This document shows positions 15,001 through 18,000 of a DNA stretch of 64,000 nucleotides, in pieces; positions within the stretch are counted from its first letter, which is position 1; each line of letters starts with the position of its first letter. This DNA is from Vulcanimicrobiota bacterium (GTDB lineage Bacteria; Vulcanimicrobiota; Vulcanimicrobiia; Vulcanimicrobiales; Vulcanimicrobiaceae). The position numbers were made by a program. Where the stretch lies: NCBI GenBank assembly GCA_963833095.1, contig CAWHWQ010000001.1:640001-704000 (forward strand). The letters are read 5' to 3'.

Positions 15001-18000
15001 ACGACATTGCGATGGAGCTTGATCTCCACGGGAAGGAGCCAAGCGCCTTGATTTGGCTCTTGATTTCGATCTTGTGCTTATCGACGTCGACCGCAAGCGT
15101 CGTCGAGATCGCGCTGGCAACGTCGGCATTGGTAACCGCGCCGAACAATTTGCCGTTGCCGCCCGCTTTGGCTTTAACAGCGAGCTGCGTGCTCTCGATC
15201 TTGCTCGCGAGCTCTTGGCTTCGGCGAGCGTTTGCGCTTCGCGCTTCTCTTGGGCGCGCTTTTGATCGGCGTGGATGGCGAGTGCGCCTTTGTTCGCTTC
15301 GGAAACGAGATTACGCGGCAGCAAGAAGTTGCGCGCGTATCCCTCGGCGACATCGACGACATCACCCTTCTTCCCGAGCGCTTTAACGTCGCTCAGAAGA
15401 ATGACTTTCATGGTTAAACCCCGTGGTTATTCGGAAACGTAAGGAAGAAATGCGATAACGCGCGCGCGTTTGACCGCGGTCGTGAGCAAACGCTGATGTT
15501 TGGCGCAATTGCCCGAGATGCGTCGCGGAACGATCTTACCGCGTTCCGACACATACTTCTTGAGGCGGTTGACATCGCGATAGCTGATGTCGAGCGCCTT
15601 GTCGGCGCAGAAATTACACGATTTGCGCTTGGGACGGCGATCTTTCACCGCGCGCTTCGTCTTGAGCTTGGTGGCCACTACAGTTGTCCTTTCGACTAGG
15701 TGGTTGAAACGCGCCCGAAGGGCGGCGTTCTAGCCAAGTGACCCGGCAGATCCGGGTCACTACCGGTCGCGACGGGCGGGACCGGACGGCTGATCTTACC
15801 ATGCCGGCCCCGCGCGTCAAAGCGCCTTTTTCGGATACGAACGTACGTTCGCTGTGGCCTGTAGCGCTCCTTTTACTTGCTCACGCCAAGCTCGATCCCG
15901 AAGCGGTTCTGCGACGTGCTGGTACCGGCCGGTCCGAAGAGCGCCCCTCCGATACCGTTACGAACCACGACGTTGGACCACTCGACCCGGACGATGCCGT
16001 TGCCGGCGAATTTAAGGGTCGGCGTCAAGGTAAAGGTCGTCGCGTTGCTCCCGGGCCCGTAGAGCAGGAATGCGTTAGGGCTCGTTGCGTTTGTCGCGGC
16101 CTCGTTTTCCGCGTATTCTCCGCGAAAACCCACCGACCAGGCGCTCGAGAACGAGTACGACCCGAGCAGCGAGACCGCGTAGTCCGACTCCCCAGACGTG
16201 TAGCCGAGAGGCGCCGAAACCGGCGACGACACGAACAACACGTAGGGCGAGAATTGCCAACGCCCCGCCGTGTGGGTGTAGTACAGATTGTATTCCGACT
16301 GGTTGGCGATGAACGACGTCGCATTACCCGGGACATTTGCGCCGGGGTTCATCCCAACGAACGTCCATGACGTCGTGCTCGACGGGGCCCACGAAACTTC
16401 ATATTCGATCGTGCGTAACCCGCCGCTGTAGAACCCGTCGTTGTCTTCCACGGCAACCGTCCACGGGCCGTTCGTGTAGCCCACGTGCACGCCGCGGCTT
16501 ACCACCGGTTCGAGCGCCCAGCCGAGGCCGCGCTGGATGTTGACGTTCTGATACGTGAACGCCCCTTCCGTGCCGAGCAGCGTGCCTATTTGCCCTCCGT
16601 AAATGGTCACGTGCTGATCGGGTGACGTGTAGGTGGCTTGGTAGATCGGAACGAGCCCAAAACAACTCGTGTTTGCGCACGTTGCATTGTTGGTCAACGA
16701 TTTGTAGTTATTGAAGGTTGAATTGATCGCGGTTCCGACCGTCGGGAAGTTGTAGCCACCGACGGTTGCGTTGGCCTTGAAATATCCCGAGGTGACGCTG
16801 CCGTTGACCAGCATGTCGCTCAAGTCAGCCCGTGTCTGCTGATCTGCGCCGGTTGGCGTGTCGAGTGCGCCGACCGCGTTGACGTTGTTGGTGGAAAGAC
16901 CGAAGACCATCAGCGCGCCCCCGATCGTCCCCGACGCGAATGGCGTCGCGGTGGGCGTCGGCGTCGGCGCAGGAGAAGCGCTTGCCGCGGCGCTTGAGGT
17001 GGCAGGCGGCGTCTGCTGAGCAGACGCCGCCTTCTCTCCACCTACCATGATCGCTACGGCTGCTACCGCGGCGAGTGCTATGCTTACGACCCTCATGCGT
17101 GTGAACCGGCGCCGGATGGCACACCGATCCCCGGAATTGGGTCGACACCGTGGATCGCGAGATCGCCGGCGACCATGATATCTTCCGTGACACGCAACGG
17201 AACGATCAGACTGATCACTTTGAGAATGATAAACGTGCCGATGATGTTAGTCACGATGATGAAGGCCGCTGCTTCGGCTTGGTGGATGAACTGGGTCGGG
17301 CCACCGCCATAAAGCCAGCCCGAAACGCTGACCGTCGCGGCGTTCTTTCCGGCTGCGGCATTGGCCACGTACTCGATCATATTCGGATCGGCAACCAAAC
17401 CCGCCATGAGGCCGCCGACCAAACCCGCAACACCGTGCGTATGCAACACCGAGAACGTGTCGTCGACTTTTTTCATGAACGCGAGCTTACCGATGTAATT
17501 GAGCGTTAACCACGGGATGATCGTCACTAGTCCCACGAAAATTGCGCCGTAACCATTGACGTAACCGGCGCAGGGCGTGATCGCCACCAAGCCGGCGATC
17601 ATGCCGTTGATCATCGAGACTGCGTTGGGTTTGCCGGTGGCGAACATGTCGGCGACCAGCCACACGAGCAACGCCGTTGCGGTTGCGATGTTAGTGTTGA
17701 GCACGGCTGCGCCGGCGTCGGCATTTGCGAAATACGGATCGCCGCCATTGAAGCCGTTCCAGCCGAGCCACAGAATACCGGCGCCGGCAAACGCCATGAT
17801 CAAGTTGTTCGGTTCGAAGTCGCGTTGATCGGCCAGCAAACGCGGACCGACGACCGCTGCAGCCACGAAACCCGAAACACCAGCCGCCAAGTGAATGACG
17901 TAACCGCCGGAGTAGTCAACGGCGCCAAGTTGCGCGAGCCAGCCGCCGCCCCACAGCGCGAAGGCGCCGATCGAATACACGATCACGCTCCACATCGGAA

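What a model noticed while it worked through the whole genome (the two positions that open the first line are those of the whole stretch)
15679..15770. Structured leader RNA directly upstream of rpsR (S18), separate from the rpsF leader
rpsR, here detached from rpsF-ssb and heading the lonC-dnaB unit, is preceded by a conserved two-domain RNA: a 5' hairpin and a stem (S)UAGG/CCUA(S) enclosing a variable hairpin and a CCGNCAACCA loop just before the SD; a candidate second S6:S18-type r-leader not in Rfam.
Evidence so far: Motif in 11 of 17 genera; 14 of 22 predicted pairs show compensatory change, incl. CUAG/CUAG to GUAG/CUAC; no Rfam hit at E<=0.5.
(Added by a program. Inside this text positions count along the whole contig: contig position 640,001 is position 1 of the stretch shown here. 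"Call 12" and the like, gene names such as g00115 and contig names such as C1 are that model's own, and its searches are not shown. The text may have been shortened before it was handed on; [...] marks where a part breaks off. The agent that wrote the report below was given it as the finding of a first reader that could run no searches.)

Follow-up and report, generated by a model that had tools for sequence, protein, structure and literature searches.

The report
Second S6:S18-type leader, before rpsR
A folded RNA in front of the gene for ribosomal protein S18 is kept across one family of soil bacteria and probably lets the S6:S18 protein pair switch off S18 production separately from S6, a new version of a known feedback switch that has not been tested at the bench.

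Summary
Confirmed. A conserved structured RNA (15679-15785, minus strand) lies directly before rpsR. A covariance model finds one strong copy, always at rpsR, in 113 of 141 genomes of this family (probably Vulcanimicrobiaceae), and no strong hit in the 32 class genomes outside it. In 67 held-out copies 96% of cells pair and 14 of 19 pairs show compensatory change. The invariant unpaired element is CCA-C (108 of 109 copies; CCG-C in one). That matches the CCR of the family's 16S rRNA S18 site and the CCR-plus-one-base spacing of its rpsF leader. In four genomes lacking the motif, an rpsF-type leader sits upstream of rpsR instead. Best reading (0.7): a second S6:S18-sensing translational repressor that controls rpsR apart from rpsF. 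The ligand is untested, the Shine-Dalgarno lies outside the stem, and about 10 copies carry long inserts before the start. 'Not in Rfam' is weak evidence, because RF02893 also misses this genome's own rpsF leader. I found no such motif in the papers searched or in earlier scan notes.

The parts
15793..15820 (-). Sigma-70-like promoter (-35 at 15820-15815, -10 at 15798-15793); predicted start near 15786
   Evidence: the only match in 15300-16100, 9 of 12 consensus bases, 0.2 expected in shuffles. Consensus match only; start site not mapped.
15763..15785 (-). PA: optional 5' hairpin, outside the flagged range
   Evidence: Pair probabilities 0.89-1.0 here. Strict form in 51 of 101 parsed leaders, 35 genera, against 5.0 at shifted positions, with compensatory variants.
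15737..15761 (-). P0: conserved hairpin with near-invariant G-C and U-A pairs near its base, followed by a conserved single U (15736)
   Evidence: The base pair occurs as C-G, G-C or A-U, with 4 inferred independent changes.
15694..15735 (-). P1: 6-bp stem, 5' strand 15735-15730, 3' strand 15699-15694; invariant UAG/CUA core
   Evidence: 100% of cells paired in both alignments. Weak on its own in this genome, pair probability about 0.17.
15708..15729 (-).
   Evidence: Pair 1 G-C 98, A-U 4; pair 2 G-C 89, A-U 7, C-G 4, G-U 2 of 102 parsed copies.
15700..15707 (-). 3' bulge of 8-9 nt ending in CCR-C; CCA at 15703-15701 is the proposed S18 contact
   Evidence: CCAC in 108 of 109 copies and CCGC in 1. 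Family 16S has CCA at the S18 site in 13 of 13 pattern matches.
15687..15693 (-). Shine-Dalgarno-like purine run, directly after P1 and not paired in it
   Evidence: Begins 0-1 nt after P1 in 63 of 101 leaders by a loose pattern. Family anti-SD read in 11 of 13 16S loci.
15427..15678 (-). rpsR (bS18), single copy, zinc-binding cysteine type
14933..15411 (-). rplI (bL9), frameshifted in this assembly; lower end approximate
   Evidence: TIGR00158 matches only residues 1-68; the rest reads in another frame; the same-genus relative G115 has an intact 148-aa gene.
12982..14955 (-). lonC, Lon-family ATP-dependent protease
   Evidence: TIGR02903, 886.7 bits, above cut-off.
11601..13181 (-). dnaB replicative helicase (longest ORF; true start probably further in)
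   Evidence: TIGR00665, 528.4 bits, matched from residue 85.
51221..51284 (-). Separate canonical-type S6:S18 leader before rpsF (H1, H2, extra hairpin H2b, U-CCR-N, H1)
   Evidence: Alignment A2 of 28 copies: 90.4% of cells paired, 9 of 17 pairs compensatory. Model R2 scores it 52.9 bits, but it is a training sequence.
50232..51220 (-). rpsF and ssb, detached from rpsR

Best explanation
The element is an mRNA leader through which free S6:S18 heterodimer represses translation of rpsR, and probably of the coupled rplI. Shown by comparison: hairpins PA and P0, then stem P1 stacked on P2 with a one-sided bulge ending in CCR plus one base, next to the ribosome-binding site. Inferred: without protein P1 is mostly open and the site is free; when S6:S18 exceeds the available 16S rRNA, S18 reads the CCA as it reads C719-C720-R721 of 16S, the dimer stabilises P1, and the complex blocks 30S loading beside the Shine-Dalgarno. 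This restores feedback on S18 where rpsR has its own promoter or lies far from rpsF, alongside the ordinary rpsF leader.
For: Structure conserved in 42 training and 67 held-out copies, one strong copy per genome, always at rpsR. The only invariant unpaired bases are CCR-C, and the sole variant in 109 is CCG, as the CCR rule allows. Family 16S has CCA at the S18 site. CCR lies one base before the closing stem, as in the family's rpsF leader. Four genomes in two lineages that lack the motif (G055; G101, G196, G223) carry an rpsF-type leader upstream of rpsR instead. The motif is missing in 7 of 12 genomes where ssb directly precedes rpsR but in only 9 of 119 others (hand tally; kin not independent; includes unpublished genomes). 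It also lies 10-30 nt after the ssb stop codon in G045, G136, G165 and G177, which fits an RNA-level element. No terminator-like site on the minus strand. The S18 motif holding the RNA-contact Lys and Arg is kept in 117 of 122, 5 not parsed (mapping to E. coli K60/R63 recalled). S6:S18 binding to CCR bulges and translational repression are established for rpsF leaders (PMC3854524, PMC3895269, PMC4647458).
Against: No binding or expression test. The Shine-Dalgarno is outside P1, whereas the known motif pairs it in H1. About 10 of 109 copies have 28-85 nt inserted between P1 and the start codon, which weakens simple steric blocking. Stem sequences next to the bulge differ from the rpsF leader, and model R2 gives no significant hit on the motif (best E = 2.8). 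The substitute-leader match is clear in G055 (24.1 bits, E = 5e-5) but weak in G101 (12.7 bits, E = 0.06). Six split-operon genomes have neither leader. Five intact-operon genomes keep the motif although their rpsF leader should suffice. The near-invariant P0 pairs and linker U are unexplained. A CCR inside an invariant 4-mer is not rare in a GC-rich genome (my rough estimate, about 1 in 10).
Confidence: 0.7

Rival explanations
1. A structural element with no regulatory ligand: it stabilises or marks processing of the rpsR-rplI-lonC-dnaB transcript, or presents the ribosome-binding site as a translation enhancer.
For: Stable 5' hairpins sit right at the predicted start. The Shine-Dalgarno is never paired in P1. 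Long inserts before the start are tolerated.
Against: Does not explain invariant unpaired CCR-C in 109 of 109 copies, the conserved but weak P1, or replacement by an rpsF-type leader.
Confidence: 0.12
2. An r-leader for another ribosomal protein, most plausibly L9 (next gene), or needing a second protein that reads P0.
For: rplI follows rpsR in all 52 class loci examined. The near-invariant P0 pairs and P1 core are not features of the rpsF leader. L9 can bind a 5' UTR and repress translation in Pseudomonas (passage of review PMC10931766).
Against: No autogenous L9 leader appears in the passages I read. The CCR signature and the substitute leaders point to S6:S18. I did not compare the motif with the L9 site of 23S rRNA.
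Confidence: 0.1
3. A switch that senses a metabolite, zinc or a non-ribosomal protein and tunes the whole rpsR-rplI-lonC-dnaB unit.
For: Multi-helix architecture with invariant bases; the unit includes a protease and the replicative helicase; S18 is the zinc-binding type in 120 of 122.
Against: Very few invariant unpaired bases, no terminator, a single copy per genome tied only to rpsR. The alternative pairing of CCAC with the P0 5' strand is not conserved: GUGG in 32 of 42 and 35 of 67 while CCAC stays.
Confidence: 0.08

Closest known systems
Widespread S6:S18 leader (S6S18CBM, rpsF leader; PMC3854524, PMC3895269, PMC4647458; Rfam RF02893)
   Same: Two stacked helices with a one-sided 3' bulge of 8-9 nt (published range 8-23) carrying unpaired CCR just before the closing strand; variable inner hairpin; next to the ribosome-binding site of an S6/S18 operon gene.
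   Different: Precedes rpsR, whereas Fu et al. state that the known RNA invariably precedes rpsF. The Shine-Dalgarno is outside the stem. Stem sequences differ. One or two extra conserved 5' hairpins. It coexists with a canonical-type rpsF leader in the same genome. Restricted to one family in the genomes searched. Not hit by RF02893 or by a family-specific rpsF-leader model.
S6:S18-Chlorobi r-leader (PMC7247131)
   Same: Lineage-restricted motif predicted to bind S6:S18; no experimental test in the passages read.
   Different: That motif precedes rpsF, fills in where the widespread leader is missing, and shows no rRNA resemblance. This one precedes rpsR, carries CCR and is additional to the rpsF leader. 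No Rfam family matched at E up to 10 except three chance-level hits.
16S rRNA S6:S18 site (h22/h23/h23a junction, C719-C720-R721)
   Same: Unpaired CCA, identical to the family's own rRNA triplet. The base of P0 and the following U resemble the upper h22 strands in some genera (an 8-nt identity in genus g4).
   Different: Different strand order and no h23a equivalent inside the junction. The P0 resemblance is post hoc, and the rRNA itself varies at a pair that is invariant in P0.

Membership tests
Widespread S6:S18 leader (S6S18CBM / RF02893) | Lies in the 5' UTR of rpsF | tested here: not met
   Lies before rpsR; rpsF is 35 kb away with its own leader.
Widespread S6:S18 leader (S6S18CBM / RF02893) | Stem H1 plus variable hairpin H2 with a one-sided bulge of 8-23 nt | tested here: met
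   P1, P2 and a bulge of 8-9 nt in 98 of 102 parsed copies.
Widespread S6:S18 leader (S6S18CBM / RF02893) | Conserved unpaired CCR in the bulge close to the 3' strand of H1 | tested here: met
   CCA-C 108, CCG-C 1 of 109.
Widespread S6:S18 leader (S6S18CBM / RF02893) | Shine-Dalgarno paired in the 3' strand of H1 | tested here: not met
   The purine run starts after P1 in all 101 leaders scored, 0-1 nt after it in 63. Fu et al. note that proximity alone may suffice.
Widespread S6:S18 leader (S6S18CBM / RF02893) | Matches the family covariance model | tested here: inconclusive
   No RF02893 match at E up to 10 in G000, but the model also misses the rpsF leader here and passes its cut-off in 1 of 14 controls. 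The family-specific model R2 gives no significant hit on the motif.
Widespread S6:S18 leader (S6S18CBM / RF02893) | Binds the S6:S18 heterodimer through CCR and represses translation | not testable with these tools
   Needs binding and reporter assays.
r-leaders in general (criteria as used in PMC7247131) | Covarying structure found consistently upstream of an r-protein gene | tested here: met
   113 of 113 strong hits lie directly before rpsR; covariation.
r-leaders in general (criteria as used in PMC7247131) | Transcribed within the 5' UTR of the regulated gene | tested here: inconclusive
   Promoter-like site just upstream. Contigs from 3 of 4 RNA-library runs of relatives join most of the leader to rpsR, but contigs show no strand or start and may hold DNA.
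S6:S18-Chlorobi r-leader | Before rpsF in Chlorobi, no rRNA resemblance | tested here: not met
   Wrong gene and lineage, carries CCR; no such Rfam hit.
Intrinsic terminator or attenuator leader | Hairpin followed by a U run | tested here: not met
   No terminator-like site on the minus strand in 15300-16100; no U run after P1 in alignment A1.

The most novel reading that the evidence does not exclude
Both halves of the S6:S18 heterodimer are under separate S6:S18 feedback in one genome, and the rpsR leader is a chimera caught in the act of evolving. An rpsF-type leader was first duplicated in front of rpsR (the state still seen in the sister family, G055). In the family's ancestor its two inner hairpins survived as PA and P0, while a new CCR site formed downstream with unrelated stems and P0 took on an h22-like role. 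In some lineages (genus g8, part of g4) the rpsF leader was then lost, leaving this RNA as the only recognisable S6:S18 sensor. This would give a natural series for testing how an r-leader is born and replaced.
Probability: 0.3. Interest if true: 0.68.

Novelty: new variant of a known kind. Interest (0 to 1): 0.5.

Why it matters
The published S6:S18 leaders sit before rpsF and control S18 only through the shared operon, which leaves open how S18 is balanced when rpsR moves away. This family appears to answer with a second leader that shares only the CCR-bulge layout, and two lineages answer with a copy of the ordinary leader. That gives a clean test of what S6:S18 needs to recognise an mRNA, and of whether repression works without pairing the Shine-Dalgarno. 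It is also a ready new RNA family with more than 100 aligned copies. Its reach is limited: one family, a known ligand class, no experiment yet.

Tried and rejected
Rfam: whole window at gathering score gave one tRNA; the leader region at E up to 10 gave three chance-level hits; 20 other motif loci gave 5 sub-threshold hits, the best Pseudomon-groES at 32.5 of 50 bits on the opposite strand. Pairing of CCAC with the P0 5' strand as the cause of its invariance rejected. S15-type G-U/G-C motif considered from recall and dropped: the order is reversed in most copies and variable. My first test for PA was too loose (90 of 101 against 68 in the control) and was replaced by a stricter one. The parser dropped 20 of 122 regions: 13 without the motif and 7 with it; those 7 were checked and all have CCAC. 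No 16S rRNA is assembled in G000, so relatives' 16S was used; the pattern matched 12 of 41 genomes. The Rfam 16S search gave no answer. RNA runs held at most 14% of the words and are contigs only: no start site, strand or level, and one contig runs past the predicted promoter. No earlier scan finding matched by place or sequence.

Full report
Setting. rpsR lies at 15427-15678 on the minus strand and heads rplI, lonC and dnaB. The genome has one rpsR and one rpsF; rpsF and ssb are about 35 kb upstream on the same strand. A sigma-70-like promoter ends 114 nt before the start codon (consensus match only). Of 121 named pattern hits, 10 had rpsR beside them: 8 are labelled Eremiobacterota, Vulcanimicrobiota, Ca. 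Elarobacter or Ca. Tumulicola, and 2 carry other phylum labels although their S18 is 81-88% identical to this one. Both named genera belong to Vulcanimicrobiaceae, so the family is probably that one (inference).

The flagged stretch folds with z = -3.3. I fetched rpsR regions for 91 of the 120 phylum genomes with an rpsR match. A simple core pattern was found in 42 of 45 family genomes (20 of 23 genera), 0 of 1 in the sister family, 0 of 6 in the other family of the class and 0 of 39 elsewhere in the phylum. On a sequence-only alignment of the 42 copies, the structure P0, P1, P2 gives 94.4% of cells paired and 14 of 19 pairs with a change on both sides, above all 500 shuffles and far above slid controls. 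RNAalifold predicts nearly the same pairs. On a FastTree tree, parsimony gives 40 double changes over the 19 pairs, though each P1 change is a single event.

A model built from these copies gave one strong hit (30 bits or more) in 113 of 141 family genomes, 85 of them not used in training; all other hits scored 20.5 bits or less. All 113 lie directly before rpsR (93 checked by tblastn by reading coordinates). Two more copies were found on fetched loci. In 67 held-out copies 96.1% of cells pair and 14 of 19 pairs are compensatory (this alignment is fitted to the model). In a class-wide search 28 of 29 family genomes had strong hits; none of the 32 genomes outside the family did, 4 having weak hits under 18 bits. 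A third hairpin, PA, lies 5' of P0 in 51 of 101 parsed leaders against 5.0 in shifted controls.

The correction. Those two C's pair with the two G's after the P1 5' strand: pair 1 is G-C 98 and A-U 4, pair 2 is G-C 89, A-U 7, C-G 4 and G-U 2 of 102 parsed copies, with three inferred independent changes at pair 2. This genome has the A-U form. The alternative fifth P1 pair never covaries and is broken in 4 of 42. The bulge is 8-9 nt, and its last four bases are CCAC in 108 of 109 copies and CCGC in one.

Why S6:S18. Matelska et al. (PMC3854524; parts 1-3 of 5 read) define the motif as an unpaired CCR in a bulge of 8-23 nt between a stem and a hairpin, contacted by S18 as in 16S rRNA, and show that CCG to AAA abolishes binding. 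Fu et al. (PMC3895269; parts 1-3 of 5 read) show dimer binding, protection of the bulge and a flexible H1 3' strand, and state that the RNA invariably precedes rpsF. Babina et al. (PMC4647458; part 1 of 5 read) show translational repression by both proteins together. In this family the 16S site reads CCA in 13 of 13 matches. The family's rpsF leader, found by pattern in 28 of 43 regions, has CCA or CCG in equal numbers, followed by one base and the closing stem: the same spacing as in the rpsR motif. P1 is weak alone in this genome (pair probability about 0.17), as expected of a stem that a protein must stabilise.

A natural substitution. Four genomes with detached rpsR and no motif (G055 of the sister family; G101, G196 and G223 of genus g16) carry an rpsF-type leader upstream of rpsR: closing stem with a paired purine run, two inner hairpins, U-CCR-N. 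The rpsF-leader model scores it 24.1 bits in G055 (E = 5e-5) and 12.7 bits in G101 (E = 0.06), so the g16 case rests mainly on the fold. In all four a 16- or 21-codon ORF starts after this leader and stops 4-13 nt before rpsR, which suggests translational coupling (inference). G101 also keeps its own rpsF leader.

Link to operon structure. Of 141 family genomes 132 have rpsR. By hand tally, the motif is present in 5 of 12 genomes where ssb directly precedes rpsR and in 110 of 119 others (one left out at a contig edge; a few of the 119 lie near contig ends, so their split state is unproven). These tallies include genomes marked unpublished: G126, G137 and G203 among the intact ones without motif, and G132, G148, G154, G195 and G213 among the motif-bearing ones. 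Without them the counts are 5 of 9 and 105 of 114. No unpublished genome is in the alignments. Kin are not independent, so I give no test. The motif occurs on both deepest branches of the family tree, with G055 as sister, so it probably arose in the family's ancestor; g16 is nested, next to a long branch, and its place is uncertain.

Results against. The purine run is not paired in P1. About 10 of 109 copies have 28-85 nt between P1 and the start codon. The rpsF-leader model gives no significant hit on the motif, and the motif model none on rpsF leaders. Six split genomes (G129, G183, G212, G130, G152, G205) have neither leader at rpsR. The near-invariant P0 pairs are unexplained. RNA-library contigs of relatives join most of the leader to rpsR in 3 of 4 runs, but cannot show strand or start.

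Origin, speculative. The junction between PA and P0, and the U after P0, read like the junction between the two inner hairpins of the G055 and g16 leaders and the U before their CCR; the inferred ancestral first pair of P0 is C-G, as in those leaders. This is a short, post hoc match and no model supports it. Seven of seven tested g4 and g8 genomes that lack the rpsF-leader pattern also had no hit with its model within 450 nt of rpsF, yet all keep the rpsR motif.

What is known. No Rfam family fits, but RF02893 also misses the rpsF leader here and passes its cut-off in 1 of 14 controls, so absence from Rfam is weak evidence. Seven literature searches showed no leader before rpsR. I read matched passages of PMC7247131 and searched its supplements (one file was cut when stored), and matched passages of PMC10931766, PMC10085705, PMC12873609 and PMC11109978. 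Supplements of PMC11109978 (30 ribosomal-leader candidates) and PMC3895269 could not be read, those of PMC3854524 and PMC4647458 were not requested, and subscription papers are not searched; any of these could hold a related motif. Earlier scan notes cover rpsF leaders only.

Verdict. A real, family-wide structured leader of rpsR. It works most likely like the S6:S18 leader (0.7) but is not a member of that family as defined, since it precedes another gene and leaves the Shine-Dalgarno unpaired. New variant of a known kind; interest 0.5.

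Noticed in passing
window 14933-15411 (-): rplI is frameshifted in this assembly. Contigs from RNA libraries of relatives carry one extra base at each of two places and the same-genus G115 gene is intact, so these are probably sequencing errors.
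   Followed up: partly
L077:1324-1397, L066:1316-1374, L185, L186: An rpsF-type S6:S18 leader followed by a 16-21-codon ORF that ends just before rpsR, in G055 and genus g16.
   Followed up: yes
window 51221-51284 (-): The family's rpsF leader is a three-way junction with an extra covarying hairpin before U-CCR, and Rfam does not detect it.
   Followed up: yes
L099, L111, L113, L122 (upstream of rpsF, genus g8): The canonical leader is replaced by a different conserved sequence whose last part resembles the 16S strand running into the CCR site; possibly a third S6:S18 mimic.
   Followed up: no
L041, L049, L057, L062 (genus g8): An infA-like ORF (name from recall of the sequence, not searched) ends just before the rpsR motif, which here lacks PA.
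   Followed up: no
L094, L096, L102, L111, L113, L126, just after the ssb stop codon: A shared short sequence with an inverted repeat follows ssb in 6 genomes of 5 genera; possibly the end of an element that inserts between ssb and rpsR and so splits the operon.
   Followed up: no
window 50786-50920 (-): S6 has a proline-rich repeated C-terminal tail (145 aa in all); S6 length varies from 93 to 146 aa across the class.
   Followed up: no
L006, L012, L014, L015, L018 and L003-L025 (families f19, f20): rpsR is also detached from rpsF in two distant families of the phylum, with promoter-like sites close upstream and no copy of the motif.
   Followed up: partly
L264, L291: Two records labelled Ca. 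Babeliales and Verrucomicrobiia carry the motif and an S18 81-88% identical to this one; probably mislabelled or contaminating contigs.
   Followed up: partly
window 15873-20034 (-): Upstream lies a nitrogen-assimilation run: glutamine-synthetase-like gene, ammonium transporter and a 407-aa protein with no NCBIfam match.
   Followed up: no
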